From: a virus
Strand: one strand, 5' to 3'
DNA length: 64,000 nt
Virus record (IMG/VR): IMGVR_UViG_3300033141_002573
Span: 42,726-106,725 of that record
The position numbers and the translations under genes were made by a program. Of this stretch, positions 11,356 through 61,596 are shown one piece after another. The stretch's first letter is position 1. The number at the start of each line of letters is the position of its first letter. The notes under the pieces were generated by a model that saw only the letters and a program-made list of their open reading frames with translations, did no database searches and was not told the DNA's origin.

Positions 11356-12573
11356 CTATCTCACCCCCAGGGCAATATCAAGCACCTCTTCCCTGTCTAT
11401 CATCTCTAGACACGGAGGATGCTCAATGTCGCACCTCTTTATTTGCCAATCGTTACATGGTGAGCATTTTGCATTAGCATTACCTGACACCGTAGTACAC
11501 CTTGGGAAACCCCTCACACGAAGATCTGGATCCACAGGTCCAAACAACCCAACACAAGGGACGCCCAAAGCATTAGCGGCGTGAAGAATACCCGAATCCC
11601 CCGCTATTACAACATCACACATTTCCAAAACAGCAAACATCTCAGCAACACTTGTTTTCCCCGACAGATTTACACACCCATCTATGTCCCATAAACCACG
11701 GGACCTACCGCCCAGCAGAATTGGAACATAACCAGCCCGGACAACCCCAGCAGCCAACTTCCGTACCCACGATGGCGATGGCAAACGCCTCGGAATGCTC
11801 CCCTCTACCTGGATACCAACAAATGGCCCATCTCTACCGACTAAAGACCTCGCAGCATTCCGATCCACATCGTCAACCTCGTAATCAAACTCGTAAGAAT
11901 CAACCCCACCAAGCCCAAAGCCATGTGCAAAGAGGTCACTACGATGGATATGGTCTCTTCCAGGTGCCGTTTCCACCCACCAACCCAAGTCGACAACAAG
12001 TCCAAATGGGCCGTTATCATACGCATCAAACCCACCGTAGACAGATGAAATGTAAGGCTTCCCCTTCAGAAGTCTTGTATTCTGACGCGAGGTGCTATAC
12101 GAGATGTCAGCAAACGGAAACCTTGCTTTCAATGTACGCACCGCAGGACACGACAGCAACACATCACCCAGACCCCCACTCCGTGTTATCAGCACACGGA
12201 GCGGCTCCCCAACCGAGAGCACTTCAGCGGCACTCACCCTATCGAATCCGGTGGCCCGTTTTAATACCCTATGGAGCGCACCATCGGCCACTACAACAGA
12301 ACCCGGCGGGAAAGTCCGTATAGCAGGCTGAAGCCAAGGTAGCGAAAGCCTTACAGACTTGTTGCTGGAGCATCGATAATAATAGTACCCGAGGCTGCGC
12401 TCCTCACAAACGATGGGGCCGGGTTGATTCAGAAGATACTCCAAATCTCCATCGTTTGAAACCTCCGTCCAAACACCGTCACCCAACATGTAGTCCTGAC
12501 TAAGGCGACCTTGCCCCATAACCCGATAGCTCTTCGGCCCATGAACAGTTACACAAATGCTATGTCGGCTCAT
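11356..12573 (-). CDS. Glycosyltransferase family 9 (heptosyltransferase-like) with N-terminal extra domain
   Basis: RVLITRSGGLGDVLLSCPAVRTLKARFP and CDVVIAGDSGILHAANALGVPCVGLFGP are WaaC/WaaF-type GT9 signatures. Confidence 0.9.
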   Translation of the reverse strand: MSRHSICVTVHGPKSYRVMGQGRLSQDYMLGDGVWTEVSNDGDLEYLLNQPGPIVCEERSLGYYYYRCSSNKSVRLSLPWLQPAIRTFPPGSVVVADGALHRVLKRATGFDRVSAAEVLSVGEPLRVLITRSGGLGDVLLSCPAVRTLKARFPFADISYSTSRQNTRLLKGKPYISSVYGGFDAYDNGPFGLVVDLGWWVETAPGRDHIHRSDLFAHGFGLGGVDSYEFDYEVDDVDRNAARSLVGRDGPFVGIQVEGSIPRRLPSPSWVRKLAAGVVRAGYVPILLGGRSRGLWDIDGCVNLSGKTSVAEMFAVLEMCDVVIAGDSGILHAANALGVPCVGLFGPVDPDLRVRGFPRCTTVSGNANAKCSPCNDWQIKRCDIEHPPCLEMIDREEVLDIALGVR

Positions 12574-12976
12574 CGGAAGCAGGCTGGGCAAGCCCGTCCA
12601 ACACGGCCTTCACGTCGGACGGTAGTTCCTCGTCCCCGTTACCGCCTGAACCAGCACCAGAACCCAGCAACTTAGTAACCAGTGCCTTAAGCTCAGCTAT
12701 CTGCTGGGCTTGAGATTCAACCTGCACCCGAACACGGTCCTCGGTGTCGAGGTCCTCAGGCGGCGGCTCCTTGCTAAACGGGTTGTAAGGCATGTTATTC
12801 CTGTCAAACAGACGAACCTGATTGAGAATTATATCGGCATCCGCATCATCCACCTCACAATACCCATTCCGTTCCCACCGATAGACAATAGGGTAACCCT
12901 CAGGACTCGTCCTGCCTGTGTTCCAACTCCAAGTACGCGGGCATCCGCGCTCATTTAGAATCATCCATATCTTCAC
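12560..12976 (-). CDS. Hypothetical head-module protein
   Basis: 138-aa ORF right after the capsid gene with GGAGG-like RBS; coiled-coil C-half. Confidence 0.65.
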   Translation of the reverse strand: MKIWMILNERGCPRTWSWNTGRTSPEGYPIVYRWERNGYCEVDDADADIILNQVRLFDRNNMPYNPFSKEPPPEDLDTEDRVRVQVESQAQQIAELKALVTKLLGSGAGSGGNGDEELPSDVKAVLDGLAQPASDEPT

Positions 12977-16063: not shown

Positions 16064-17944
16064 GGTTACCACCTCCGTCTCCTCCGAAGCGCCATTATTA
16101 TCCACCGCAGGTGTAAATGCCTCAGGAAATGCCTTCTGTATGTCATCGGGGTTTGCCACACCCAGATCCTCAAGGATAGTAGCCATTGTTTGCTGCGCAT
16201 CTGGAGGAAGAGTCGACGGCTTCTCAGCAACCACAACAGCAGCCTTCTCTGTAGGTACACCCCGTGGCGGCGTCTTCATGTTACCAGACACCATCTGCTT
16301 CCTACTAGACTCTATGGTCTCCTTAACCTTTTGAGGGCTAACAAATGCAGAAAGTGGCGTGTACCCCTGACCCGCAATGTAGAGGATAGGCTCGTCACCA
16401 CCGGGGAGCCGTGGCATGTGCAACTCCGCCCGTATCTCATTTATCGACGCAGCCCCTCTCGACAGGAGCATATCCCAAAGTTCCCGCTTCTCCTGAAGAT
16501 CAAGAAGGTCTGGCACCTCAAGGTCAAGCACCCAATCACGGGTCCCGAACTCCCGCTCAAAGATGTAATTAAACCTTTGTTCGATAACACGCTGTTCGGG
16601 TCTGACAACATACTCAAGGAACCGCCTGTCCATCTCCTGGCTCGTAGCACGATTCAGATCCCTGGTGTTAAACACAACAGGCGGAGGCACACGGTATGCT
16701 CTTAGCACACCCCTATCGGCATCCTCCCTAAACTGGAGGTAACCACCACTATCACTTAAGTGTTCAGAACTCAAACGCTCTATCTGGATATCTGTCTCCT
16801 CTCCGATCTCAAGGACGAGAACCTGGTTTAGCGCATCAAGCTTGTTCTGCGTCTTTATCCACTCATCAATCGTAGACAGCACCTTACGGTTGAGACCACC
16901 CTCGCCTTTGATGAAAATAGCCAGCCTGGGCACCGTTGCATTGTCAAAGTAAGACAGCATAAACAAACGAGCATTCTGGGCACCAAGATAGTCCTCAATG
17001 GCAGAGATAATAGGTGGCTCCCCATACACAGTATCCCTTGGGGATCTAATAGCAAAGTGCATCATTTCATGCACCGGAACCTGTATCTCATCCCCATCCT
17101 TTTGTGCCTTCTTCATCCAATCAAAAATGGAACCATACCAGTAGCCATCACGGATGTCAGCCTTGGCAATAAAGGCACCCTCCCCATCTTCCGCAGGAAT
17201 AAACACAGGAAGCCTGGGCATAACAGCCTTACCATCAAGTTGAAAATCCGCAGTATCCCTCCGCACCAACCTAATGGCCCTAGCGTCCTCGACACCATAC
17301 TTCACAAACCATTGCTTCCTTGACCCCTTCACCTGAACAAAACCAGGTACGTTCTTCGCAATCCTCATTGTTACAGATTTGGCATCCGCCATCTTTGCCA
17401 GCCTACCCTGGGCATCACGCATTAACTCCATGTAAGCGTTTCCAGTACAGTAGTAGTCCTGGAACATAGCTGCTAACATTTCACTAAAACTATACTCAGG
17501 AAGACCAGCCTCGAGCACAGCTACAATCTCGTCCCGCTTCGATTCATCCGGGTGTGGCGAGGACGCCTTCGACGGCGTTCTTCCTGCCGTGGAAACAGGC
17601 CATATCTCCTGCCTTGGCCGAATATGCCACCCCTGCTTAACTACTGCCTCTACAAGAGCGTCAACTGAGGCACGCATGGTAGCATCCCTCAGGTATAATG
17701 CTGTGTAGAAATGGGGAAGTACTGGCGGTTCCACAACCGCGTTCATGTCGTAGTAATCACGCATCCCATCAATAGCATCTATCTGCGAACTTACCACTCG
17801 CCCCACACTATCGGTCTTGTTTGCCTTCCCCATCCGCCCCATAATGTACAGAAAACGTTGTGCAGCGCTTCCGGTTGGATCAGAAATAACAGCAGCCTTA
17901 ACAAGGTTACCATCCTTGTCCTCAAGATCCATTGTACGGATCAT
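16055..17944 (-). CDS. Portal protein (PBSX/HK97-like)
   Basis: TGNAYMELMRDAQG, EMMHFA, YGEPPIISA, ASINEIRAELHMPRLPGGD motifs; follows terminase. Confidence 0.9.
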   Translation of the reverse strand: MIRTMDLEDKDGNLVKAAVISDPTGSAAQRFLYIMGRMGKANKTDSVGRVVSSQIDAIDGMRDYYDMNAVVEPPVLPHFYTALYLRDATMRASVDALVEAVVKQGWHIRPRQEIWPVSTAGRTPSKASSPHPDESKRDEIVAVLEAGLPEYSFSEMLAAMFQDYYCTGNAYMELMRDAQGRLAKMADAKSVTMRIAKNVPGFVQVKGSRKQWFVKYGVEDARAIRLVRRDTADFQLDGKAVMPRLPVFIPAEDGEGAFIAKADIRDGYWYGSIFDWMKKAQKDGDEIQVPVHEMMHFAIRSPRDTVYGEPPIISAIEDYLGAQNARLFMLSYFDNATVPRLAIFIKGEGGLNRKVLSTIDEWIKTQNKLDALNQVLVLEIGEETDIQIERLSSEHLSDSGGYLQFREDADRGVLRAYRVPPPVVFNTRDLNRATSQEMDRRFLEYVVRPEQRVIEQRFNYIFEREFGTRDWVLDLEVPDLLDLQEKRELWDMLLSRGAASINEIRAELHMPRLPGGDEPILYIAGQGYTPLSAFVSPQKVKETIESSRKQMVSGNMKTPPRGVPTEKAAVVVAEKPSTLPPDAQQTMATILEDLGVANPDDIQKAFPEAFTPAVDNNGASEETEVVTLT

Positions 17945-19923
17945 GCTGACCCCACCTTTCTATGGCGCTCAAACAATTCTTTTCGCTTCTTAAACCAGCC
18001 GCCATCATCACTAGCATCGTAGCCAGTATCAGCCAAACGAAGTCTCCTCCCGAACCACTCGTCGAGAACAGGTGTATTCTCATCATTGCCAGTGGCCTCC
18101 TCATCACCCCCATCGGGTGACGGAAATGCACTTCCAAATACATGCACACGAACCCCGTCTAACTCCCCCATCTGTAACTTACTGTAAGCATGAATAGCCG
18201 CCATTAATGTGTCATCATGCTCAGCCTCATCAGGGTAACCCTCAAGCTCCTCCTCGAATGGCTGCATTTTCCTTCTCGTATAACCATCCTGCGCCCAGGG
18301 GTACAAAAGCAACCCACTCTCAGCGAGTTCAACAAACCGCTGAATCTCCTCCAACTTCGAGGGGCCAAGCGCACGTTTGGTTACAGGGATACCCAAACTC
18401 TCCTCTATACTTACAGCCGTCCATAGGGCCATTGCATTGCTTTCAAACACAACAAAGTGAGGCCTGTACGCAAGAATCCATTCCCTTAGCCTCCCAATAA
18501 ACCGTTTGGGGGAACTCGTCTGAAAGCGAAGGAGATCCAATAGTATTCTGCTTTTCGAACGTTTATCCATACCCCAAAGTTCGATAACGGTGTAGTCCCT
18601 CTTAGCCCCAGGCTTCGAAACCTTACTAGCAGGGTCAATAGAAATAACACGCCTTCCTATTTCAATACCAGCAGCAGCGTACTGGTCGTAGAGTTGAGTC
18701 CCAAGACTAGGAATACCTATACGGCAATCCCACGCAGAGAGAAGAGGCTTAAGTGATCCATCAGGCCTTAACTGCCCATCAGCCCTACAGTAATGCTCAA
18801 GCAATTCATGAGGAAAGAGCTTCTCCTCTGGCGCTCTCGGTCTGTTTTGACGTGTCCTAGCAAATGCGGTTCTATCTCCGATGTAGTCCTCAACCACCTT
18901 GCGAGGCGTCCAAAACTCAGGCCAAAGAAGATAGTCGCTCAAGTTATCAGGCACAACAACATTATCGACAGTCCATGGCTTGCTCTCATCTATTCGCTTA
19001 GGAGGCCATGGGCAATCGGGCTTGGTATCGTCCACCATCCTATAGACCTTTACGTCCCAGTTGCCCTTCTGCTTGGCATCATCGGCAATACGGCTGTGGG
19101 CATCCGTAGCATGGTGAATTGTCCCGATGTTGATCCACATTCGCCTATCTGGGTGAAGACGCGAATGGAAGGCAGTGGTCATCCAATTGTACACCGCAAG
19201 TCGTGACGACTCCGTTTTTGAGTTCTCTATAGTGACAACATCATCCGTAACCCCAACATCAAACCTAACACCCTCAACAGCACCTCCATAACCAAAAACC
19301 TCGACGTTACCGGAACTTTCATCCAGCTTACCGTCTACGCATATCTTATCCGCCCTCCACACCCTTGGTGACCTGACATCATGCTGGATGCCAACAAGAC
19401 CAAGGTATATCTCATTCATAGTAAGATGGAATTGGTGGTTCGCAACATGACGCTCACCCAACGTCTTGGTAGACGTGCCCAACAAACAGGTGAGATTCGG
19501 ATCAATGAAGATAAGGTAAAGAGGAAACGCACGAACAAGAATAAGGCTTTTCCCAGTAGACGTGGGCCAGATACGTGACATCCGATAAACACCATCGTTC
19601 CTGGTAAAAGCCTTATCAAATGGACAAATAGCAGGGGGGAGCGTCCGCATAATGTCATCGCAGACCTCCCCCCAATGGCGAGGTAGTTCCTTAGGCCAAA
19701 CCTCTCTGTCTACACGCGATTGTACCGGTAGGTACACATAGTGGAAAAAGTAACGGAACGAAACAGTGGCATTGACCACCATGTTCCGTGCGTCAAGCGA
19801 CAGAGCCTCCCATCTCTCGCGCCCAGCCTTCCCATTGTAAAGAGGAGGCAGGGCAACACGTCTGCCGTCACTGAGCTTGACAATAGTGCGCTCTGGGTAA
19901 CGCTCCTCCAACGGTCTCAACAA
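17941..19923 (-). CDS. terL: Terminase large subunit
   Basis: Walker A-like WPTSTGKS, Walker B VTDDVV, RNase-H nuclease ISIDPAS...RDYTVI...HDDTLMA. Confidence 0.9.
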   Translation of the reverse strand: MLRPLEERYPERTIVKLSDGRRVALPPLYNGKAGRERWEALSLDARNMVVNATVSFRYFFHYVYLPVQSRVDREVWPKELPRHWGEVCDDIMRTLPPAICPFDKAFTRNDGVYRMSRIWPTSTGKSLILVRAFPLYLIFIDPNLTCLLGTSTKTLGERHVANHQFHLTMNEIYLGLVGIQHDVRSPRVWRADKICVDGKLDESSGNVEVFGYGGAVEGVRFDVGVTDDVVTIENSKTESSRLAVYNWMTTAFHSRLHPDRRMWINIGTIHHATDAHSRIADDAKQKGNWDVKVYRMVDDTKPDCPWPPKRIDESKPWTVDNVVVPDNLSDYLLWPEFWTPRKVVEDYIGDRTAFARTRQNRPRAPEEKLFPHELLEHYCRADGQLRPDGSLKPLLSAWDCRIGIPSLGTQLYDQYAAAGIEIGRRVISIDPASKVSKPGAKRDYTVIELWGMDKRSKSRILLDLLRFQTSSPKRFIGRLREWILAYRPHFVVFESNAMALWTAVSIEESLGIPVTKRALGPSKLEEIQRFVELAESGLLLYPWAQDGYTRRKMQPFEEELEGYPDEAEHDDTLMAAIHAYSKLQMGELDGVRVHVFGSAFPSPDGGDEEATGNDENTPVLDEWFGRRLRLADTGYDASDDGGWFKKRKELFERHRKVGSA

Positions 19924-22282: not shown

Positions 22283-22999
22283 CTACCAACCTCCCATTTC
22301 GTGTTCTATCCTCAGAGCGGCCATCTTACAGTATTGCTCATCCCTCTCAATCCCGATACACCTCCTCCCCATGCGGTAGCAAGCCACCAATGTGGTTCCA
22401 CTCCCCAGGAATGGATCCAGAACCATATTCCCAGGGTCTGACCACGCTCTAAGCACGGTGGATGGTAGCCACACAGGGAAGGCAGCAGGGTGATCCTTCC
22501 CTGCTGTATCACCCTCACTACTATCCCATACCCCCCTTCTGGTGAGTTTCCTGTCCCTAAACACCTCCTTGGAGTTGGGTGGTTTCCTGAACGTCCAAAT
22601 ATACTCCCACTCAGCCGCAGGCACAGAGAGGTTAATACCAGATGGACCTAGAGTGATGGTAGAGAACTTCTTCTTCCATATCCGCCTACTGTGCATTACC
22701 CACCCCGTCATCCTGAATGCGCGATTGTACAACTCGGCCATTGTCCTCCAATACTTTGAGGTCTCCCCGAAGTTCACCACGAAGAAGGCCCCAGGGCGGA
22801 ACTTGGGTATGCTTACTGCCCCAACCATACTAATCAGCAACAGTAACCCATTCCATTCCAACCCACTTTCGTACTCCTTCCCCAGGGCGTAGGGAGGTGA
22901 CGTAACCCCCAGATCAAACTCAACGTCCAACTGGGGTATTACCTCGAGGCAGTCACCACAGTAGATGCTCAAGCCCTGCTTCTCCCAGTAGGGTTCCAT
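22283..22999 (-). CDS. DNA methyltransferase, beta class, probably N4-cytosine
   Basis: Motif IV SPPY before motif I DPFLGSGTT; HPAAFP. Start trimmed to ATG 22999 (MEPYW) by similarity to paralogs. Confidence 0.9.
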   Translation of the reverse strand: MEPYWEKQGLSIYCGDCLEVIPQLDVEFDLGVTSPPYALGKEYESGLEWNGLLLLISMVGAVSIPKFRPGAFFVVNFGETSKYWRTMAELYNRAFRMTGWVMHSRRIWKKKFSTITLGPSGINLSVPAAEWEYIWTFRKPPNSKEVFRDRKLTRRGVWDSSEGDTAGKDHPAAFPVWLPSTVLRAWSDPGNMVLDPFLGSGTTLVACYRMGRRCIGIERDEQYCKMAALRIEHEMGGW

Positions 23000-23274
23000 G
23001 GTAAGGAGTATAGCAAGTGGCACGTTCAATGTCAACCTATCCCATGCGCTGCCAGGAGCATCCGTAGAGGAAGCGGAGGCAAATGTGGGGGAAAACGCCT
23101 GGGGGAGTGGGGCAGATGTGGGGGTAGAACGGGAGAAAGACGGGAGCGCCTGTGGAATACAGAAGGTAACGAAATGGTGAGAGGCCTGTGTCGAGATAGG
23201 GAGGGTATGTGACAAAATGGTGAAAGCCCCGTGTCCGCGCACGCGGGATAGGGTGGGGAGGGGTCTATTACCGG

Positions 23275-23354
23275 GTCGAACGAATGTTCGACTAATCATA
23301 TACATATTACGCCCTAGTTGCCCGAACGTCCGCTATACGGAAGCTATAGCGGAC
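23275..23354. other. Two hairpins in the divergent intergenic region
   Basis: GTCGAAC/GTTCGAC (23275-23292) and GTCCGCTATA/TATAGCGGAC (23328-23354). Confidence 0.5.
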
Positions 23355-23467: not shown

Positions 23468-23496
23468 AGGACAAAAGCCTCGCTTTGTGGTATACT
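23468..23496 (+). promoter_or_regulatory. Extended -10 sigma70-type promoter upstream of sigma-like gene
   Basis: TGg-TATACT at 23488-23496 with AGGACA 17 bp upstream. Confidence 0.5.
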
Positions 23497-23710
23497 GCTA
23501 CCGTAGAAGCAAGCAAGCACACACCTCAAGCGCAAGCTGCAAGCGCAGGGAAGGGAGGACAGAGGGCAAGCGACACTTTCCTATTCCGAACCCTCGCAGG
23601 TAGAATCGACGGAAGGGAGGGAAGGTGGACAGTCAAGGCAGTCAAGCAGGTAGACAGAAGGTCCTTCGCTCAAGTAAGCAAGCAAGCAACGGAAGGAAGG
23701 TCAAAGGTCA

Positions 23711-24604
23711 ATGTCCTCAATCACCACAATCGAGCGGTCAACAATAAGGCGAATCGTAGTGTCCTCAATCTATACGGTCAACGGAGGTGAAGCACCTCAA
23801 GACATTATCGAGGAGGTAGAAGGGGACATTTTGGCAGACTTGGCAGAAGCGGATATTACCCTTGACCGGGCACAATTAATAAGGGTATACGCCAAGGTCA
23901 ACGACAGAGAGAGGGTCGAGCAGTACATAAGGGACACTCGACGCGGAATGGTTCGGAAACAGATTTCTGACGCAACCAGGAACCTGCTTCGCTATCGAGC
24001 TATCGAAAGGGCGAGGTTCTGTATAGTCACCGTTGCGGTTCCTGTAGACCTCAAGCAACGAATAACGGTAAACAGCTTGCTGCAAATGGTAAGAAGTGGC
24101 CGGGCTTTCGTAGACCCGGCTTCATACAGCGACACAACAACAAGGCTCGAGGAATTGGCAAGCCTTTCCGCTATACCGGGGGTCTCAATCAAGATAGAAA
24201 AGGGGAAGGAGGTTAATCCCCTCCTTAGTGCGGTCAAGAAGCTAGCATTGCGTTCCGCGAAGTGGCACCTCAAGTTCCGACAGGCAGAACCCCTCTGGTC
24301 ACTAGAGGAGGAACACAAGGACAAGATTCCCCTCTGCCGAATCGAAGAGGAGGCAGAGGAGAGAATCGGAAACAAGGACTTCACGGCAAAGGTGGAGGAG
24401 GTGCTCAATAGGTTCGCGGAGAAGGAGGGGAAGGGAGAAGGGTACAAGGGAAAGCTTGCCAAGACACTTTGGCTTCGGATGGACGGGCTTACCGAAGGCG
24501 AGGTAGCGAACAGACTCAAGGTGACAGAGAGAAGCGTGAGGACTTATGTCAAGGACCTCAAGAAGGCATTTGGGGAGGAAGTGGGACTCAACGCGGTAGG
24601 ATAG
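23711..24604 (+). CDS. Sigma-70-family (ECF-like) factor or related HTH regulator
   Basis: C-terminal region-4 HTH (LWLRMDGLTEGEVANRLKVTERSVRTYVKDLKK); LLSAVKKLALRSAKWHLKFR...SLEE resembles region 2.4; a motif copy lies in its own leader. Confidence 0.65.
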   Translation: MSSITTIERSTIRRIVVSSIYTVNGGEAPQDIIEEVEGDILADLAEADITLDRAQLIRVYAKVNDRERVEQYIRDTRRGMVRKQISDATRNLLRYRAIERARFCIVTVAVPVDLKQRITVNSLLQMVRSGRAFVDPASYSDTTTRLEELASLSAIPGVSIKIEKGKEVNPLLSAVKKLALRSAKWHLKFRQAEPLWSLEEEHKDKIPLCRIEEEAEERIGNKDFTAKVEEVLNRFAEKEGKGEGYKGKLAKTLWLRMDGLTEGEVANRLKVTERSVRTYVKDLKKAFGEEVGLNAVG

Positions 24605-24611
24605 AGCAAGC

Positions 24612-24660
24612 GTAAAGAAACAAACCCCTTGCAGGTTCAACCTGCAAGGGGTTTTCTTTT
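24612..24660. terminator. Bidirectional intrinsic terminator
   Basis: Perfect 14-bp stem AAACCCCTTGCAGG/CCTGCAAGGGGTTT with TCTTTT on the right and AAAGAAAC on the left (U-rich on the minus strand). Confidence 0.85.
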
Positions 24661-24661
24661 C

Positions 24662-24870
24662 GACTTGGGTTGGGGGTAGGGGTTGGGGTTGGGGGTAGGG
24701 GTAGGGGTAGGGGTAGGGGTAGGGGTAGGGGTAGGGGTAGGGGTTGGGGTAGGGGTTGGGGTAGGGGTTGGGGTAGGGGTAGGGGTTGGGGTAGGGGTAG
24801 GGGTAGGGGTAGGGGTAGGGGTTGGGGTTGGGGTTGGGGGTAGGGGTAGGGGTAGGGGTAGGGGTAGGGG
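24662..24870 (+). repeat. Telomere-like (GGGGTA/GGGGTT)n hexamer array, G-quadruplex prone
   Basis: About 33 G4-5 runs separated by TA or TT over ~205 bp (count approximate). Confidence 0.95.
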
Positions 24871-24924
24871 ACCTTCCCCTTCCCCTTGGACTTGGGTTGG
24901 GGAACCCCTTCCCCTCCAACCCTT

Positions 24925-25069
24925 TTACCTGCGACAAGGAGAAATAGGAAAGTCCTTCCCCTTCCCCTTGGACTTGGGTTGGGGTAGGGGGTTGGGGACC
25001 TTCCCCTTCCCCTTGGCCCTTGGCCCTTGGCCTTCAACCCTTTTACCTGCGACAAGGAGAAATAGGAAA
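24925..25069 (-). promoter_or_regulatory. Two leftward copies of the 27-bp motif pointing into the G-array
   Basis: TTTCCTATTTCTCCTTGTCGCAGGTAA on the minus strand at 24925-24951 and 25043-25069; each followed after 6 nt by TGGAGG or TGAAGG, as for the plus-strand copies. Confidence 0.8.
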
Positions 25070-25192
25070 GTCTATAATCAATTAATAGCACCTCGAAAAG
25101 TTCTCCAACACTTTCCTATTTCTCCTTGTCGCAAGTAGTATCAACGGAAGGGAAAAGACTGCAAGCAGTCAAACAGAAGGGAGAAACAGAAC

Positions 25193-25519
25193 ATGTCAAG
25201 GTCAATCTGTAAGCTGTATGCCGAAGTAGAACCTGAGTACAAGGAGGAGGTGCTGCAAATCGCCTCAATCGCGGAAAATGCAATAGCAGGAATTGACGAG
25301 TGCTTGCTAAACGAAGGAGAAAGAGTCACCGTCTACGGTTCCGACCAAGGGCCTTCGGTGATTACAGAACTAGGGGAAGAGGTTGGAACCAATGATAGCG
25401 AACTTGCTACATGGTATTCTGACCTCCTTGAAGAGGAGGTGAACCTGCTGCTACCGAAAGGGTTTGTAGCATACTACGAAGACAATTCCCTTTGGGTAGA
25501 GCACCTTGAGGAGGGGTAG
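25193..25519 (+). CDS. Acidic hypothetical protein, paralog family A
   Basis: C-terminal LLPKGFVAYYEDNSLWV motif shared with 26720 and 29460. Confidence 0.7.
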   Translation: MSRSICKLYAEVEPEYKEEVLQIASIAENAIAGIDECLLNEGERVTVYGSDQGPSVITELGEEVGTNDSELATWYSDLLEEEVNLLLPKGFVAYYEDNSLWVEHLEEG

Positions 25520-49517: not shown

Positions 49518-50290
49518 AAATCAGACGTTCTCTCCTGAGGTAGCGGCGAAGCCGCTGCCTCGCGAAGCCTCGCAGAGGCTTCGCCAGTACGACTACTGTA
49601 GTATGTCTATTTGTTGTCTTATTTCTTACAGAACTTTGAACTCCTGTCGTTAAGGCCTTCGGCCTTAACAGTAAGGCCTTTAACTGCTTTAAGACATAAG
49701 GCCTATGGTGTTAAGCTGATCGACGGAGTCGCCCTTTAAGCCCTTTGCTTATTGTCCCTTGGGCGGGTTAAGCCCATTGGACCTGGGACCCTTCGACCCT
49801 TGGGCGGGTTAAGCCCTCCGCCTAGTAGTCACAGGGCAAAGGGCTTAAAGGGGGTAGGGTCCAATGGGCGGTAGGGCGAAGGGCTTAAAGGGGGTAGGGC
49901 CTAATGCGCCCTTTAAGCCCTTAAGCCCCTTAAGCCGAACGCGCGCGTGCGCGCGCGATCCTTAATATATAGTGGGTCTTAAATCAGTGTGTTATATCAT
50001 TGAACATTCTGTTACAACGCAACCTACAAACATGACATAACATTATGGGTGTGGGTTGTGTGTAGGCCAACCTACCCAGGTGTCTAAGTTTACCTGGGAA
50101 AAGTTAGACAGGTAGGTAGGTTAACCTGGGTCCGTGTCTAAGTTTACCTGGGAAAAGTTAGACAGGTAGGTAGGTTAACCTGGGTCCGTGTCTGGAAAAG
50201 TTAGACAGGTAGGTAGGTTAACCTGGGTCCGTGTCTAAGTTTACCCGCCAAAACCTAGACAGGCGGGATAATAGCAAAGGAGGTAGTGCT
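49518..50290. other. Putative replication origin region
   Basis: ~770 bp non-coding with three triloop hairpins, 7 exact TTAAGCCC octamers, a 17-bp inverted repeat, a (GC)n tract, an AT-rich patch and tandem 54-bp repeats; flanked by helicase and DnaC-like genes. Confidence 0.6.
50080..50263 (+). repeat. Tandem 54-bp repeats (2 full, 1 with 11-bp deletion, 1 degenerate)
   Basis: GTGTCTAAGTTTACCTGGGAAAAGTTAGACAGGTAGGTAGGTTAACCTGGGTCC starting at 50080, 50134, 50188, 50231. Confidence 0.9.
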
Positions 50291-53948: not shown

Positions 53949-55670
53949 ATGCAACGTGTTTTGCAAGGAGACAGTGCTGTTATCCTCCGAGAGTTTGACG
54001 ATAACTACTTCCATGCCATCGTTACTGATCCCCCCCACGCCTTAGGCAAAAAGCAGAAACGGGGAACTGCTCCTGGTGAAGGCAAAGCGAGTGGATTCAT
54101 GTCTGCTGATTGGGATAAGCATCTTCCCCCACAGGCTATTTTTGATGAATGCTACCGAGTGCTGAAGCCGGGTGGACACATCTGGATTATTGCGAACGAG
54201 CGATGGGCGACCTGCTTCGGCTTGGGAATGCGGCTACGCAATGCGGGCTTTCTGATAGACGATTCGCAGATAGTAGCCTGGCTGTCCCTTACCGGAATGC
54301 CCAAATCCCATGACATCAGCAAGCAGGCTGACAAGCAGGCTTTTCGGCGTTGGCTTGAGTACGTGGGGCGTGAGACCGTCAAGTGCCCCAACCACCACGC
54401 GGAGAATGACGAGAACGGGAAGCCTAAGCGGTGCGCGGCGTGCGCGAAGGTCTTCGCCGAGGGGAAGATAACCCAGGAGGAGAGACGCAAGGCAGAGAGC
54501 GCAGCGGTGAATGGGAAGTTCGACGTGACCGCCTGGGGTAGACCCGCACACGGCGCACGGGGTATCACATATAGCACAGAGGCTTTCGGCGCAAACCCCG
54601 ACCGCAGCGCAGGCACCGCCCTCCTCTCCTTCATCATCTCGTCCCACTGGCCTTCCTCTCCCGCCGAGCAGCGGGCGCAGTGGGAGGCCGTCGTGGGCGA
54701 AGTGCCGGAGGGATGGGATACGAGTAGGCCGCCAGGGGTGAGGGTGCAGGTGGCTGAGAAAACTGTATCTGGATACCCCGACGGGAAGGGGGTTGCGCAT
54801 TACAAAAATCGGAGGAAGTCGGAGGGAAGCCAAGTCTGGACAGAAGGTACTGTGTCCATTACGCGGCCTTCTACCCCCATCGCCGCCGAGTGGGATGGCT
54901 GGCGCGGTTCGATTACGCCCTTCCGCCCCCTTGTTTCACTCATTCTCCATGCGCAGAAACCGTGGAAAGGCTCTTATCTACGATGTGCGGAGGAGCACGG
55001 AACCGGGAGCATAAACGTGGATGGTGGTAAGATTCCGTTCGGCGAAGGTGGTGAGTACACCGTCAACGTACTGGCAGAATGGAGTGGCTTGGGCCAACTC
55101 AAGCGTCCTGACTATGAGGCCCGTGAGGAGACTGTTGGCCGCGTCCCAGGCAATATCCTCACGTACGCTGATCTGCTAGGTGAGCTTACCCACCAAGCCG
55201 ACCTCGACATGTGGGCCAAGCGCTTCGGTCTTCCAACTCCAAGTGCAGAACTGCTGGAGACGGGAATTGTGTATTGTCCGAAACCGAGCAGGAGGGAAAA
55301 GCAAGCAGGACTGGATGCGAACGAGGGGGTGGCAGTCTACAACAGAAAGTGCCGTAAGTGCGGTAAGTGGGAGAGGTCTCAGGGACTCGATGCCGAACGC
55401 TACACGTGTCGATGTGCTTCACCTGAATGGATAGAGCCGAAAGGGAATGTACATCCTACCTGCAAGCCTGTTGCTCTTTCTGCGTTTTTGATTGGTATTT
55501 CTACCAAGGAGGGTGATAACGTACTCGACCCCTTTGTGGGGTCGGGTACGACGCTTGTTGCTGCAAAGATGTTAGGACGCAATGGTGTAGGCATCGAACT
55601 ATCTGAGGAGTACGCTGAGATAGCAAGGGCGCGTTTGAGTGTTACAAATAAGATCCAGGAGTTTAGCTAA
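53949..55670 (+). CDS. Large beta-class DNA methyltransferase with Zn-ribbon insertions
   Basis: IVTDPPH, HPTCKP, DPFVGSGTT; inserted CPNH...CAAC and CRKC...CRC. Confidence 0.85.
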   Translation: MQRVLQGDSAVILREFDDNYFHAIVTDPPHALGKKQKRGTAPGEGKASGFMSADWDKHLPPQAIFDECYRVLKPGGHIWIIANERWATCFGLGMRLRNAGFLIDDSQIVAWLSLTGMPKSHDISKQADKQAFRRWLEYVGRETVKCPNHHAENDENGKPKRCAACAKVFAEGKITQEERRKAESAAVNGKFDVTAWGRPAHGARGITYSTEAFGANPDRSAGTALLSFIISSHWPSSPAEQRAQWEAVVGEVPEGWDTSRPPGVRVQVAEKTVSGYPDGKGVAHYKNRRKSEGSQVWTEGTVSITRPSTPIAAEWDGWRGSITPFRPLVSLILHAQKPWKGSYLRCAEEHGTGSINVDGGKIPFGEGGEYTVNVLAEWSGLGQLKRPDYEAREETVGRVPGNILTYADLLGELTHQADLDMWAKRFGLPTPSAELLETGIVYCPKPSRREKQAGLDANEGVAVYNRKCRKCGKWERSQGLDAERYTCRCASPEWIEPKGNVHPTCKPVALSAFLIGISTKEGDNVLDPFVGSGTTLVAAKMLGRNGVGIELSEEYAEIARARLSVTNKIQEFS

Positions 55671-55879: not shown

Positions 55880-56443
55880 GTGATATTACCTGAGGCCGAA
55901 CATTGGAAACGGATTGAAACAGATGGAGAGAAACGGGTTGCTGTTGGGCATAGGCTTCGTGGGACTAAAACAGTTAAGCTTGCTGTGTATCGGCTTCTGC
56001 GACATGGGTATGAAGAGTGGATAGATGAGGGGAACTACACCTATGGCTGGGCGCTAGAGAAACTTGGGCCTGGACCGGAGGGACAGGAGCGTATTTATGT
56101 TACAGGCCCAATAGAGGGAAACTCAGAGGCTATTGTGGAACGTAACATCATAGGCATAGAGAGTGCTTACCGAAGACTTGTTGCGGTTGGGCACTGGCCT
56201 TACTGCCCCTACATCGGACTATCTCCAGATATGGTGTTCTATGAGTCCCCTGACAGGCGGAATATGCGTATTCAACTAGGGATGGTGTGGATGGATCTAT
56301 GCCATTCTATTTTGCTACTCCCAGGGTACAAGGACAGTAAGTACACAATGGACGAGCATGACAGAGCAAAAGAACTTGGGTTGAATGTATACTACTCCAT
56401 CGAGGATATTCCTGAGGTTGAAAGAAGAGGAGATAGCGCGTAA
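55880..56443 (+). CDS. DUF4406/DUF1937-like Rossmann-fold protein with N-terminal extension
   Basis: RIYVTGPI...GHWPYCP...CHSILLLPGYKDSK...EHDRAKELGLNV. Confidence 0.6.
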   Translation: MILPEAEHWKRIETDGEKRVAVGHRLRGTKTVKLAVYRLLRHGYEEWIDEGNYTYGWALEKLGPGPEGQERIYVTGPIEGNSEAIVERNIIGIESAYRRLVAVGHWPYCPYIGLSPDMVFYESPDRRNMRIQLGMVWMDLCHSILLLPGYKDSKYTMDEHDRAKELGLNVYYSIEDIPEVERRGDSA

Positions 56444-56444
56444 G

Positions 56445-57185
56445 GTGCAGTTGACCTTAGGTGGGAAGAGTCCTGTTGACCGAAGCATTGCAATCATTCG
56501 TGAGTTTGAACCGCCAGAGGGTTATTATCTTGCATTCAGCGGCGGCAAGGATAGCGTGGTGCTGTATGACCTAACAGTTCGGGCTAAGGTACGCTTCGAT
56601 GCCCATTATAATATGACTACAGTTGACCCGCCGGAACTAACACGGTTCATTAAACGTGAGTACCCTGATGTGTCTTGGGAAGTGCCTTCGTTGAACTTTT
56701 TTCAGATGGTCCTTGTACGAGGAACCTTGCCAACACGGAGAATGCGCTGGTGTTGTCGGGCATTCAAGGAAGTAGGGGGAGTGGGACGAGTTGTGCTGGT
56801 GGGTTTGCGTGCCCAAGAGAGCAGAAGTCGGGCTAAACGACCCGTTGTGGCAGCATGTACAAAATCGCACAAGTGGTTTGTATCGCCTATTCGTGACTGG
56901 ACATCGGCTGACGTGTGGGAATACATTCATAACCAGGGCTTGGCCTATTGCAGTCTGTACGACGAGGGTTTCGACCGCTTGGGTTGTGTTATCTGCCCAT
57001 TCCAGAGTAGGGCACAACGCGACGCAAGCATGGTGCGATGGCCGACATTCTGGCGGCTCTTGGAGCAGACTGCCCATAAACTCTGGCATTTGCGCCCACG
57101 TATTCAAGAACGGTTTCCAACACCTGAGAGTTACTGGGACTGGTGGTTATCAGGTCATGCGTCAAATGGTGGGAGCAGTCCGTAA
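56445..57185 (+). CDS. PAPS reductase-family protein
   Basis: YYLAFSGGKDS, WCCRAFKE, SPIRDWT, RLGCVICP. Start uncertain (track uses 56385). Confidence 0.88.
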   Translation: MQLTLGGKSPVDRSIAIIREFEPPEGYYLAFSGGKDSVVLYDLTVRAKVRFDAHYNMTTVDPPELTRFIKREYPDVSWEVPSLNFFQMVLVRGTLPTRRMRWCCRAFKEVGGVGRVVLVGLRAQESRSRAKRPVVAACTKSHKWFVSPIRDWTSADVWEYIHNQGLAYCSLYDEGFDRLGCVICPFQSRAQRDASMVRWPTFWRLLEQTAHKLWHLRPRIQERFPTPESYWDWWLSGHASNGGSSP

Positions 57186-59653: not shown

Positions 59654-59821
59654 AACATCCGCCGACTGCGAACTCGTGACAAAGCACCTGCGGGAGCAGC
59701 GGAAGCTGTACCTCTGGCCGCGAGCCTGGGGGGCGCCACGCTCAGACATGTAACGCCGAATCTCATGGACGGGCGATTCTCCATTTCTGGAACTGTGGAG
59801 AATCGCCAAAGAGGAGAAGCA

Positions 59822-60556
59822 ATGAAACCGTACTGGCGGGATGAGGCCCACGGGCTTGAGATATACCACGGGGACTGCCTCGAGGTCATGCCGCAGTTTG
59901 AGCGGGAGTTCGAGGTTGTCTTCACCGACCCTCCCTATGGGATAGAATATAATGGGGGCACGGGCAACAAAAAGAAGCGCGAGCCGCTTGCTGGCGATGC
60001 TCGCGATGTCTACGGGGAGTTTCTGCCGTTGCTACCCGTTGGGAGAGACGCCGCTGCGTACATCTGGTTCACTGACAAGAAGGTGCGAGTAGTTTATGCC
60101 GCCGCCGAAGACAACGGATGGACGGTACGGGCGCTTATCATTTGGAATAAGATGCAGGCGCATTACGGTGCGTTCATGGCGCAGTACATGCAGAAACATG
60201 AGCCTTGCCTCTACCTCGTGCGTGGCACCCCGCCGTGGTATGGCCCAACCAATGAGGTCACTGTCTGGGATGTAAAGCAGCCGACACGCAGTGACCATCC
60301 GACACAGAAGCCTATTGCCTTAGCGGTGCGGGCAGTGCAGAACAGTAGCGCAGAGGGCGATGCTGTCCTCGACCCGTTCCTTGGCAGCGGCACCACTCTC
60401 GTCGCCTGCTATCGCCTCGGACGGCGCGGCGTTGGGATAGAAATCTCCGAGGAGTACTGTGAACTATCCGCCAAGCGCCTTGAGCGAGAGATAGCGCAAG
60501 GTCGCCTGTTTGAACCCGCAGAGATAGGCAAGCTGAAACAGGAGGTGTTGTTATGA
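59822..60556 (+). CDS. Beta-class DNA methyltransferase (N6-adenine likely)
   Basis: TDPPY, HPTQKP, DPFLGSGTT. Confidence 0.92.
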   Translation: MKPYWRDEAHGLEIYHGDCLEVMPQFEREFEVVFTDPPYGIEYNGGTGNKKKREPLAGDARDVYGEFLPLLPVGRDAAAYIWFTDKKVRVVYAAAEDNGWTVRALIIWNKMQAHYGAFMAQYMQKHEPCLYLVRGTPPWYGPTNEVTVWDVKQPTRSDHPTQKPIALAVRAVQNSSAEGDAVLDPFLGSGTTLVACYRLGRRGVGIEISEEYCELSAKRLEREIAQGRLFEPAEIGKLKQEVLL

Positions 60557-60837: not shown

Positions 60838-61596
60838 ATGATGCCTTACTGGAAAGACGAAAAGCATGACATCAGTATCTACCATGGTGATTGTCTTGAG
60901 GTAATACAGGAGTTGGACCAAACCTTTGACGTGTGCGTGGCGGATCCTCCGTACAATATAGGTTTTTCCTATGCGCAATACGATGATAGTCTACCTCATG
61001 ACGTATACCTCTCTCAACAGCTTGAGTTGGCCCGACTTGTAGGTGGGCTGCTTTCCAATGGGGGAAGTTTCTGGTATCTCAACTACCCAGAGTTTGCCGC
61101 ACGATTCTGGTCCGCAGTAGATAAGGCGGTCCCAACACTTACATGTACCGAATGGGTTACGTGGGTTTACCATCCTCACACCGGTGGCAGACCACTCAGA
61201 AAGGCATCACGTGTTTGGCTGTGGTTCTCGCGAGGCACTCCACGTTCTACGTCTTTCTATGGTACTTATCGGAATCCAAATGATAAGCGGATAATGCGGA
61301 AGATAGCAGCAGGGAAGTTGCCTATTGATATAGACTGGTGGCTTGACGAGCAGGTGAAGAACGTCTCCTCTGAAAAGACAAGTTTTCCATGCCAGGTTCC
61401 GACCGATCAAGTTCGGAAGATTCTGTATGGTGTCCACGCAGAGAAAGTCCTCGACCCATATCTTGGGAGTGGCACAACGTTGCTGGCGTGCTTACGGAAT
61501 GGTTGCAGTGGTGTTGGTATCGAGCTTGACGAGCAGTACTGTGAATTGGCAGCCAGCAGGTTGGAGCATGAAATAGCGCATGGTTCGCTATGGTAA
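60838..61596 (+). CDS. Beta-class DNA methyltransferase
   Basis: ADPPY, FPCQVP, DPYLGSGTT. Confidence 0.9.
   Translation: MMPYWKDEKHDISIYHGDCLEVIQELDQTFDVCVADPPYNIGFSYAQYDDSLPHDVYLSQQLELARLVGGLLSNGGSFWYLNYPEFAARFWSAVDKAVPTLTCTEWVTWVYHPHTGGRPLRKASRVWLWFSRGTPRSTSFYGTYRNPNDKRIMRKIAAGKLPIDIDWWLDEQVKNVSSEKTSFPCQVPTDQVRKILYGVHAEKVLDPYLGSGTTLLACLRNGCSGVGIELDEQYCELAASRLEHEIAHGSLW

What the first reader, a model, noticed from the sequence alone, without database searches (positions are those of the whole stretch)
24612..25138. Telomere-like G-quadruplex array apparently transcribed as a C-rich (CCCCUA)n non-coding RNA
Seen: ~33 GGGG(G) runs as GGGGTA/GGGGTT hexamers. They are bounded on the left by a terminator with U-tracts on both sides, and on the right by two leftward copies of the 27-bp motif with the same 6-nt spacing to a purine start as the gene-linked copies. 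No ATG follows either copy. Inference: a complete promoter-RNA-terminator unit producing ~300 and ~420 nt RNAs whose core is G-free and about two-thirds C. Established: poly(C)-like unstructured RNA is the optimal Rho substrate; (TTGGGG)n is the Tetrahymena telomere and CAACCCCAA its telomerase template; G4 DNA drives recombination at Neisseria pilE, though there the RNA is G-rich. Hypotheses: a Rho or poly(C)-binding-protein decoy, an anti-Shine-Dalgarno sponge, an R-loop switch controlling G4/i-motif formation, or a packaging/injection/replication landmark. I know of no comparable unit in a bacteriophage.
Basis: partly seen in the sequence, partly recalled or inferred. Interest (0 to 1): 0.92.

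Follow-up and report, generated by a model that had tools for sequence, protein, structure and literature searches.

The report
Phage G-quadruplex repeat with antisense promoters
An orphan 108-kb phage carries a real, non-coding run of 33 GGGGTA/GGGGTT units that sits between a two-way terminator and two backward-pointing copies of the phage's own early promoter, so it probably yields a G-free, C-rich RNA; this is still unproven, and similar but shorter repeats without promoters occur in other phages.

Summary
At 24667-24870 there are 33 runs of four or more G (20 GGGGTA, 9 GGGGTT, 3 GGGGGTA, 1 boundary unit). They follow a 15-bp bidirectional terminator (24622-24654). To the right lie two leftward copies of the phage motif TTCCTRT-N10-TCGCARGTA; the other 13 copies in the genome all point rightward, ahead of early genes. 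The 432 nt downstream of the leftward copies hold no ATG or GTG and no stop codon. The array core on that strand is 67.6% C with no G.

The "promoter-RNA-terminator unit" reading is plausible from anatomy, but no reads, RNA data or close relatives covering the locus could be obtained. The telomere/telomerase link fails: the array is internal and the genome has no reverse transcriptase. It is not a VIPR guide array and not a repeat-peptide gene.

The closest known kind is the G4-forming simple sequence repeat that lies just after stop codons on the coding strand (Rehm 2015). I found (GGGGTA)n in that position in at least three unrelated phages, none with promoters. Earlier scan notes describe G-rich repeat arrays on other DNA, but not this unit.

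Best reading (about 0.5): a slippage-grown G4 repeat that is transcribed backward into a poly(C)-like RNA. A Rho-related function is inference only.

The parts
23468..23496 (+). sigma-70-like promoter (AGGACA-17-TATACT with TG) ahead of the sigma-like gene
23578..23602 (+). first rightward copy of the phage motif TTCCTRT-N10-TCGCARGTA, in the leader of the sigma-like gene
23711..24604 (+). orphan 297-aa gene (P0004) with a C-terminal HTH. Weak sigma-70/ECF-like signals. Candidate factor for the motif.
24622..24654 (.). bidirectional intrinsic terminator: 15-bp stem, A-rich tract on the left and T-rich tract on the right (tails 24612-24664)
24667..24870 (+). hexamer array with 33 runs of >=4 G (GGGGTA/GGGGTT). 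G-rich on the sense strand of the upstream gene; C-rich and G-free on the minus strand.
24871..24925 (-). leader of the proximal leftward unit. Predicted start near 24918. SD-like G-rich words that can pair with the first array units to form a 5' hairpin.
24926..24950 (-). leftward motif copy 1 (41.1 bits on the PWM of the 13 rightward copies)
24954..25043 (-). leader of the distal leftward unit. It is a tandem ~118-bp duplicate of promoter plus leader and holds a mini-array of four G runs at 24976-24997.
   Evidence: (D7, D12)
25044..25068 (-). leftward motif copy 2 (29.0 bits); predicted start near 25036
25049..25078 (+). sigma-70-like promoter (GCGACA-18-TATAAT) overlapping leftward copy 2 and pointing right
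25113..25137 (+). rightward motif copy with the same spacer as the leftward copies. With copy 2 it forms an inverted repeat of 28 nt (96% complementary, 38 nt apart). It drives the 25193 gene.
   Evidence: (I5)
25193..25519 (+). first downstream early gene, a 108-aa orphan

Best explanation
The locus is a non-coding transcription unit built on an expanded G4-type simple sequence repeat. A hexamer repeat grew by slippage and internal duplication in the 3' flank of the phage's immediate-early, sigma-like gene. Two tandem, backward-pointing copies of the phage's early/middle promoter read into it, and a bidirectional terminator stops them. The expected products are RNAs of about 307 and 425 nt. 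Each has a G-rich 5' hairpin, a roughly 200-nt unstructured, G-free, 68% C tract, and a 3' terminator hairpin.

Shown: the anatomy, the lack of coding capacity, and the composition.

Inferred: that the motif is a promoter served by the neighbouring factor, and that the leftward copies fire.

Most likely mechanism (inference, about 0.2 on its own): the C tract works as an extreme Rho-loading (rut-like) sequence. In cis it would keep leftward transcription from running antisense into the sigma-like gene. If the RNA is abundant, it could also tie up Rho in trans. Orientation matters. The only promoters aimed at the array make the C-rich RNA, and the terminator shields the array from the direction that would make G-rich RNA and R-loops.
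For: - Leftward motif copies exist only here: 13 rightward against 2 leftward in 108.5 kb.
- Identity between the rightward copy at 25113 and the leftward copies covers exactly the 28-nt motif, spacer included, and stops at its edges (I5).
- The downstream YGRARGG element sits at the same spacing in both leftward copies.
- PWM scores are 41.1 and 29.0 bits, against a leave-one-out range of 34-58 for 12 gene-linked copies.
- The terminator has an A-rich tract on its left side. That tract is useful only for stopping leftward transcription, and no leftward gene needs it.
- There is no ATG or GTG and no stop codon across the 432 nt of predicted transcript, and no Rfam family matches.
- The fold shows a 5' hairpin, an open C tract and a terminator hairpin.
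- The 207-nt G-free run is five times the next longest in the window.
- The neighbouring gene looks sigma-like: Atlas neighbours are Sigma70_r4/ECF/GerE clusters at 0.95, and TIGR02937 matches at E 0.0015, below its cut-off.
- G-rich tracts block transcription only when they lie in the non-template strand (PMC3561996, PMC5499740, seen). The leftward direction is therefore the permissive one.
Against: - There is no expression data of any kind. No sequencing run was listed.
- No relative covers the locus, so there is no conservation test.
- Both leftward copies have GTAA where 12 of 13 rightward copies have an invariant GTAG.
- Their identical spacer shows they are recent duplicates, so they may not have been tested by selection.
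- The surrounding 370 bp is full of nested slippage products.
- The same repeat occurs after gene 3' ends in other phages with no promoter aimed at it. In one it lies between two convergent terminators.
- The host is unknown, so it is not known whether Rho is present.
Confidence: 0.5

Rival explanations
1. This is a DNA-level G4-forming simple sequence repeat of the kind described in Xanthomonas and Nostoc. It is tolerated, or has the still unknown role of that class. The leftward promoter copies are by-products of duplication in a slippage-prone spacer, and any RNA is incidental.
For: The position rule matches. The array is G-rich on the coding strand and starts 69 nt after the stop codon (PMC4692102). 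The same unit is found after 3' ends in unrelated phages without promoters: L039/L013/L028/L035, L026 and L018. Nested tandem duplications surround it. The leftward copies are recent duplicates with a change at a conserved G. Family-level relatives have no array.
Against: It does not explain three things: why the duplicated segment matches the motif edges exactly, why the start-site element is kept at the right spacing, and why the terminator is built to work leftward. At 33 units it exceeds the 26 reported for the bacterial class and every other IMG/VR array found, which reach at most 112 bp.
Confidence: 0.27
2. The array is a directional fail-safe barrier behind the immediate-early gene. Host polymerase that reads through the hairpin would make G-rich RNA with the G-rich strand as non-template, form R-loops and G4, and stall before reaching the next genes. 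The convergent leftward promoters add transcriptional interference.
For: Orientation-dependent blockage by G-rich non-template tracts is established in vitro (PMC3561996, PMC5499740). The array directly follows the terminator of the only gene with a good sigma-70-type promoter. The strand rule is shared with arrays after terminators in other phages.
Against: A sigma-70-like promoter for the next gene lies just downstream (25049-25078), so strict insulation seems pointless. The hairpin terminator is already strong, with 15 pairs. The model gives no reason for promoters that depend on the very factor being insulated. Blockage has been shown mainly with T7 polymerase.
Confidence: 0.12
3. It is a transcription-activated replication origin or recombination hotspot, comparable to the tandem promoters of the T7 primary origin or to the Neisseria pilE G4 with its cis RNA.
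For: Two tandem phage-type promoters read into a special non-coding tract. The phage has T7-like replication genes: family A polymerase and a DnaB-like helicase. The locus lies 1.3 kb from the divergence point of the two gene arms, where GC skew flips. A distant relative has 31-bp iterons at the syntenic spot.
Against: The RNA would be pyrimidine-rich on a purine-rich template, which is the least stable hybrid type and the opposite of the pilE arrangement. There is no AT-rich unwinding element. The skew flip is explained by gene orientation.
Confidence: 0.07
4. It is an assembly artefact or contamination, or it is a repeat-peptide gene, or it is a VIPR-type guide-RNA array.
For: Repeats can be misassembled. 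All three minus-strand frames are open. Earlier scan notes found that hexamer arrays elsewhere were peptide genes or VIPR arrays.
Against: Both flanks are phage sequence, and the boundary words of the array recur in the unique flank. The longest internal exact repeat is 47 nt. There is no ATG/GTG, no SD-spaced start and no stop codon before the terminator. VIPR needs a 5-nt GGY/NN period with hypervariable NN, a structured tail and a Vipr gene. Here the period is 6, the units are near-invariant and the neighbouring genes are orphans.
Confidence: 0.04

Closest known systems
G-quadruplex-forming simple sequence repeats of Xanthomonas (GGGAATC) and Nostoc (GGGGA(C/T)T), Rehm et al. 2015, PMC4692102
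   Same: Short G-rich tandem unit. Non-coding location. The array lies just downstream of a stop codon with the G-rich strand on the coding strand. Length varies. Both strands can be transcribed. Function unknown.
   Different: The unit is a hexamer, not a heptamer. It is a single locus in a phage rather than a genome-wide family. It has 33 units, against a preference for 4 and a maximum of 26. It is bracketed by a bidirectional terminator and two phage promoter copies aimed at it.
Non-coding (GGGGTA)n arrays in other uncultivated phages (IMG/VR loci L039/L013/L028/L035, L026, L018)
   Same: Same unit and same placement: after a stop codon or terminator, G-rich on the sense strand.
   Different: These arrays are perfect and shorter (28-112 bp) and have no promoter motif. 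In L039 the array lies between two convergent terminators next to a (GTGCGCGT)7 tract. The phages are unrelated, with GC from 38 to 64%.
Neisseria pilE G4 with its cis-acting small RNA (Cahoon and Seifert 2013, PMC3547852)
   Same: A G4-capable tract with a dedicated promoter for a non-coding RNA that reads through it.
   Different: In Neisseria the RNA pairs with the C-rich strand and frees the G-rich strand. Here the G-rich strand is the template and the RNA is C-rich. Here there are 33 runs rather than one G4, and there are no silent donor copies.
Rho utilisation (rut) sites and poly(C) as Rho substrate (established knowledge)
   Same: A long, unstructured, C-rich and G-poor untranslated RNA.
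   Different: Natural rut sites are not perfect repeats. No RNA decoy of Rho is known to me. The host is unknown, so whether it has Rho is also unknown.
VIPR vrRNA arrays (bioRxiv 10.64898/2026.04.26.720920)
   Same: A short-period tandem-repeat non-coding RNA encoded by a phage.
   Different: The period is 6, not 5. There is no hypervariable dinucleotide, no conserved structured tail and no recognisable Vipr partner. The promoters point to the C-rich strand.
T7 primary origin (tandem phage promoters 1.1A/1.1B plus an AT-rich tract; from memory)
   Same: Two tandem phage-specific promoters read into a non-coding tract, in a phage with a family A polymerase.
   Different: The tract is GC-rich and there is no unwinding element. 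Nothing here shows initiation of replication.
Ciliate telomeric repeats (TTGGGG)n
   Same: GGGGTT units.
   Different: The array is internal and mixed with GGGGTA. There is no reverse transcriptase, and the flanks are phage sequence.

Membership tests
G4-forming SSR (Rehm 2015 type) | Tandem unit of 6-9 nt with a G tract, at least four units | tested here: met
   Period 6, 33 runs of >=4 G
G4-forming SSR (Rehm 2015 type) | Non-coding, close downstream of a stop codon, with the G-rich strand on the coding strand | tested here: met
   The array starts 69 nt after the stop at 24604, on the same strand, beyond the hairpin. This is slightly beyond the paper's 0-50 bp class.
G4-forming SSR (Rehm 2015 type) | Many loci spread over the genome | tested here: not met
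   There is only one such array in 108.5 kb. The host genome is unknown.
G4-forming SSR (Rehm 2015 type) | G4 formation in K+ shown by CD | not testable with these tools
   Needs oligonucleotide biophysics
Promoter-to-terminator small RNA gene | Promoter of the genome's own class, correctly oriented | tested here: inconclusive
   PWM scores are 41.1 and 29.0 bits against 34-58, and the start element is kept, but GTAG is changed to GTAA. Promoter status of the motif itself is inferred.
Promoter-to-terminator small RNA gene | Intrinsic terminator effective in that direction | tested here: met
   15-bp stem with a T-rich tail on the minus strand
Promoter-to-terminator small RNA gene | Transcript detected | not testable with these tools
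   No run listed
VIPR guide-RNA array | 5-nt GGY/NN repeats with hypervariable NN, 9-16 per RNA, and a conserved structured tail | tested here: not met
   Period 6; units near-invariant, with only A/T varying at one position. Definition taken.
VIPR guide-RNA array | Adjacent vipr (RAMP) gene | tested here: inconclusive
   Neighbouring genes have no Pfam or PHROG hit, and the Atlas gives no RAMP-like neighbour. No structure search was run.
Telomere / telomerase template | Repeat at a genome end, with a reverse transcriptase present | tested here: not met
   The array lies at 67.4 kb of a 108.5-kb record with 114-bp terminal repeats. No RVT_1 hit at E <= 1.
pilE-type G4 plus cis RNA | RNA pairs with the C-rich strand, so that the G-rich strand is free | tested here: not met
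   The leftward promoters use the G-rich strand as template. The requirement comes from PMC3547852.
Repeat-peptide gene | Start codon with ribosome-binding site, and a stop codon inside the transcript | tested here: not met
   No ATG or GTG; the TTG triplets lack SD spacing; no stop codon before the terminator
T7-type transcription-activated origin | Tandem phage promoters followed by an AT-rich unwinding tract with primase sites | tested here: not met
   Tandem promoter copies are present, but the tract is 68% G+C on one strand

The most novel reading that the evidence does not exclude
The phage makes an abundant poly(C)-like RNA: a 200-nt G-free (CCCCUA/CCCCAA)n tract capped by hairpins. Its job would be to capture the host termination factor Rho, or another C-binding host RNA protein. 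That would make it the first RNA decoy of Rho and a new class of phage host-takeover RNA.
Probability: 0.1. Interest if true: 0.85.

Novelty: new variant of a known kind. Interest (0 to 1): 0.55.

Why it matters
G-rich quadruplex-forming repeats placed just after genes are abundant in some bacteria, and their function has stayed unknown for a decade. This phage offers an unusually clean case. It has one array, the longest of its unit type found in IMG/VR, with what look like dedicated promoters on one side and a two-way terminator on the other. It also has a candidate phage factor that would switch those promoters on. That makes the strand asymmetry directly testable: C-rich RNA is allowed, while G-rich RNA is blocked. 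If the RNA is made and acts on Rho or another host factor, it would be a new kind of phage regulatory RNA. If it is not made, the locus still shows that this class of repeat extends to phages and keeps its strand rule there.

Tried and rejected
Searches for relatives covering the locus all failed:
- Megablast of the region against GenBank phages gave nothing.
- The upstream protein found no relative in IMG/VR, in metagenome contigs or among 5.8 billion proteins, where it matched only itself.
- HMMER against 1.84 billion representatives gave one distant hit, over the N-terminal half only.
- The exact promoter 24-mer had no hit in metagenome contigs.
- The degenerate motif in IMG/VR gave 98 single hits, consistent with chance, and no multi-copy genome.
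- Terminase relatives at 55-64% identity (L040, L140-L144) carry neither the array nor the motif, and the gene order upstream differs.
- A 99.76%-identical strain (L139) covers only the terminase.
- Exact-protein look-ups of four neighbouring genes found nothing.

Sequencing runs: none was listed for DNA or RNA.

Host: the genome-contig scans gave no prophage relative and only a 36% ComM match, so the host is unknown.

Readings rejected:
- Coding.
- Telomerase template.
- VIPR.
- 7-deazaguanine modification that would abolish G4: no TGT or QueC.
- Any Rfam family.
- Anti-SD sponge, because the pairing does not fit GGAGG (from the sequence).
- pilE-type R-loop, because the strand is wrong.

Considered but untestable without the host genome: a Chi-like array. 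A TRAP-like reading of the UAG triplets on the G-rich RNA was also considered, but that RNA would be blocked by the terminator.

Full report
WHAT IS THERE. The window is bases 42726-106725 of a 108,503-bp IMG/VR virus record with 114-bp terminal repeats, rated complete.

The phage is tailed. A leftward structural arm includes the large terminase (17944-19923), a tape-measure-like protein and a DNA methyltransferase (22283-23305). A rightward arm starts at about 23.4 kb and holds many small orphan early genes. These are followed by clamp-like, ComM-like, integrase-like, SF2 helicase, exonuclease, several methyltransferase and DnaB-like genes. Past the record's end there is a family A polymerase fused to a UDG-like domain.

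The finding lies 1.3 kb into the rightward arm.

THE ARRAY. Tandem Repeats Finder reports 24673-24870, period 6, 32.7 copies and 90% matches. Counting units gives 20 GGGGTA, 9 GGGGTT, 3 GGGGGTA and one boundary GGGGACC, which makes 33 runs of four or more G. No other array of this type exists on either strand of the genome.

The order of the TA and TT units shows both unit-level slippage and a larger internal duplication: the same seven-unit pattern occurs near both ends. The longest exact internal repeat is 47 nt, so a de Bruijn assembly with k of 49 or more can resolve it. I could not check reads, because none was listed.

Contamination by ciliate DNA is unlikely. Both flanks are phage sequence, the units are mixed, and the boundary words of the array recur in the unique right flank.

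THE FLANKS. On the left, 17 nt after the stop of the 297-aa gene 23711-24604, there is a 15-bp hairpin at 24622-24654. It is called as a terminator on both strands, with an A-rich tract before it and a T-rich tract after it.

On the right lie two leftward copies of a motif that I re-derived as TTCCTRT-N10-TCGCARGTA. The genome holds 15 copies, all within 10.4 kb. Thirteen point rightward and each sits 20-45 nt ahead of a Shine-Dalgarno sequence and an ATG. The only two leftward copies are at 24926-24950 and 25044-25068.

The fixed spacing with a free spacer sequence fits a bipartite protein-binding site such as a promoter. The neighbouring 297-aa orphan has a C-terminal helix-turn-helix. Its language-model neighbours are Sigma70_r4/ECF/GerE clusters at 0.95, and it gives a sub-threshold sigma-70/ECF match at E 0.0015. 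It has essentially no homologues. It is also preceded by a good sigma-70-type promoter. A phage factor that redirects the host polymerase to this motif is therefore a reasonable inference, but it remains an inference.

ARE THE LEFTWARD COPIES PROMOTERS? A weight matrix built from the 13 rightward copies scores the leftward ones at 41.1 and 29.0 bits. The leave-one-out range for the 12 good rightward copies is 34-58.

Three points speak for function.
- Identity with the rightward copy at 25113 covers exactly the 28-nt motif, including the otherwise free spacer, and ends at the motif's edges (I5).
- The element YGRARGG, which follows every rightward copy at a fixed distance, is present at the same distance in both leftward copies.
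- The terminator is equipped to work leftward, although no leftward gene exists to need it.

Two points speak against.
- Both leftward copies read GTAA where 12 of 13 rightward copies read GTAG.
- The identical spacer marks them as recent duplicates, so selection may not yet have tested them.

The right flank is itself a tandem duplication of a module of about 118 bp, made of promoter, G-rich leader and a short C-rich array. The distal module carries only four G runs (24976-24997) where the proximal one carries 33.

NOT CODING. The 432 nt of minus strand from 25043 to 24612 contain no ATG and no GTG. The few TTG triplets lack a spaced ribosome-binding site, and no frame meets a stop codon before the terminator. 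The open frames that the ORF listing reports are repeat artefacts (Tyr-Pro, Thr-Pro, Pro-Leu; Gly-Val on the plus strand) that run through the hairpin and the promoters. On the plus strand the terminator lies directly upstream, and no rightward promoter intervenes.

THE PREDICTED RNA. Starts near 24918 and 25036 and an end near 24612 give RNAs of 307 and 425 nt. The 204-nt core is 67.6% C and has no G. The 207-nt G-free run compares with a next-longest 40 nt in the window. Folding gives a 5' hairpin, in which G-rich leader words pair with the first repeat units, then an open C tract, then the terminator hairpin. Rfam has nothing above threshold.

COMPARISONS. No close relative covers the locus; every route I tried is listed under Tried and rejected. 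Family-level relatives share the head module but have neither the array nor the motif. One of them, L040, has 31-bp iterons at the syntenic divergent spacer.

The repeat unit itself is not unique to this phage. IMG/VR holds 31 contigs with at least 28 nt of perfect (GGGGTA)n and 29 with at least 40 nt of (GGGGTW)n. Most short ones lie inside long reading frames on the C-rich strand, where they encode proline-rich linkers, or at contig ends.

A few are clearly non-coding and sit right after a gene's 3' end, with the G-rich strand on the sense strand.
- L039/L013/L028/L035 are one phage seen in four samples. It has 19 perfect units, in the two contigs that hold the whole array, between two convergent terminators, beside a (GTGCGCGT)7 tract.
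- L026 has an array after a terminator.
- L018 has an array 18 nt after a stop codon.

None has a promoter motif aimed at it, and none exceeds 112 bp.

This placement is the rule published for G4-forming repeats of Xanthomonas and Nostoc. Those lie within 50 bp downstream of the stop on the coding strand, reach up to 26 units, are transcribed on both strands, and have no known function (PMC4692102). An earlier scan note led me to that paper.

READINGS EXCLUDED OR WEAKENED.
- Telomerase template: the array is internal and the genome has no reverse transcriptase.
- VIPR guide arrays: these need a 5-nt GGY/NN period with hypervariable dinucleotides, a structured tail and a Vipr gene. None of this is seen here.
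- pilE-type switch: there the RNA pairs with the C-rich strand, and orientation is essential (PMC3547852). Here the G-rich strand is the template.
- Origin of replication: this is possible but weak. The hybrid would be of the least stable type, there is no AT-rich element, and a richer iteron region lies at 49.8-50.3 kb.
- 7-deazaguanine modification, which would prevent G4: no TGT or QueC was found.

HOW IT MOST LIKELY WORKS. G-rich tracts block transcription only when they are the non-template strand (PMC3561996 and PMC5499740, from the abstracts listed). In this locus the hairpin shields the array from that direction, and the only promoters aimed at it use the permissive direction.

I therefore favour a real leftward unit that yields a poly(C)-like RNA (about 0.5). 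The array itself is a slippage-grown member of the known post-gene G4 repeat class. For function I commit, at about 0.2, to engagement of Rho. A long, untranslated, unstructured, G-free C tract is the textbook optimum for Rho loading. In cis it would make the leftward unit self-limiting and protect the sigma-like gene from antisense transcription. In trans it might titrate Rho.

The main rival (0.27) is that the array is only a DNA-level repeat and the promoter copies are duplication debris. A directional fail-safe barrier (0.12) and an origin or hotspot (0.07) follow.

VERDICT. I class the locus as a new variant of a known kind. Interest is moderate (0.55): the locus is clean and testable, but it rests on one genome, with no expression data and no conservation evidence.

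Noticed in passing
L039:4550-4790 (also L013, L028, L035): An unrelated phage seen in four samples carries (GTGCGCGT)7 directly followed by 19 perfect GGGGTA units (all 19 in the two contigs that hold the whole array), between two convergent terminators. That puts two different non-B-DNA-prone microsatellites side by side in a zone that should not be transcribed.
   Followed up: partly
L040:5340-5540: A 63%-identity terminase relative has four to five 31-bp iterons in the non-coding spacer at the position syntenic with the divergent region of this phage. This may be its origin or an operator array.
   Followed up: partly
window 18796-18882: There is an in-frame 87-bp (29-aa) insertion/deletion inside the large terminase gene between this genome and a 99.76%-identical strain from JGI sample 3300033148 (L139).
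   Followed up: partly
window 25049-25078: A sigma-70-like promoter with a perfect TATAAT points right and overlaps leftward motif copy 2. Binding at that copy could occlude it, so the motif cluster might also act as a switch between host-type and phage-type transcription of the 25193 operon.
   Followed up: no
window 22283-23305, 53949-55670, 59765-60556, 60838-61596; genome 1259-2611: The genome has at least five N6/N4 DNA methyltransferase genes. A PAPS-reductase-like gene (56385-57185) and a nucleoside 2-deoxyribosyltransferase-like gene (55880-56443) are also present. This suggests heavy DNA modification. No TGT or QueC was found.
   Followed up: partly
genome 12537-15134 (outside the window): The family A DNA polymerase carries an N-terminal UDG-superfamily domain and a 3'-5' exonuclease domain in one 865-aa protein.
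   Followed up: no
L159:3-96 and L160:2389-2482: A 91-kb IMG/VR contig has (GGGGTT)15 at both of its ends. This may be a terminal repeat made of the hexamer, or an assembly break inside a repeat.
   Followed up: no
window 49800-50260: There are four ~54-bp direct repeats and paired 37-bp G-rich repeats downstream of the SF2 helicase gene. This is a better origin candidate than the hexamer array.
   Followed up: no
L140-L144 and window 11356-12591: All family-level relatives keep a GT9 glycosyltransferase gene inside the head module, between the capsid-region genes and the tail tube gene.
   Followed up: no
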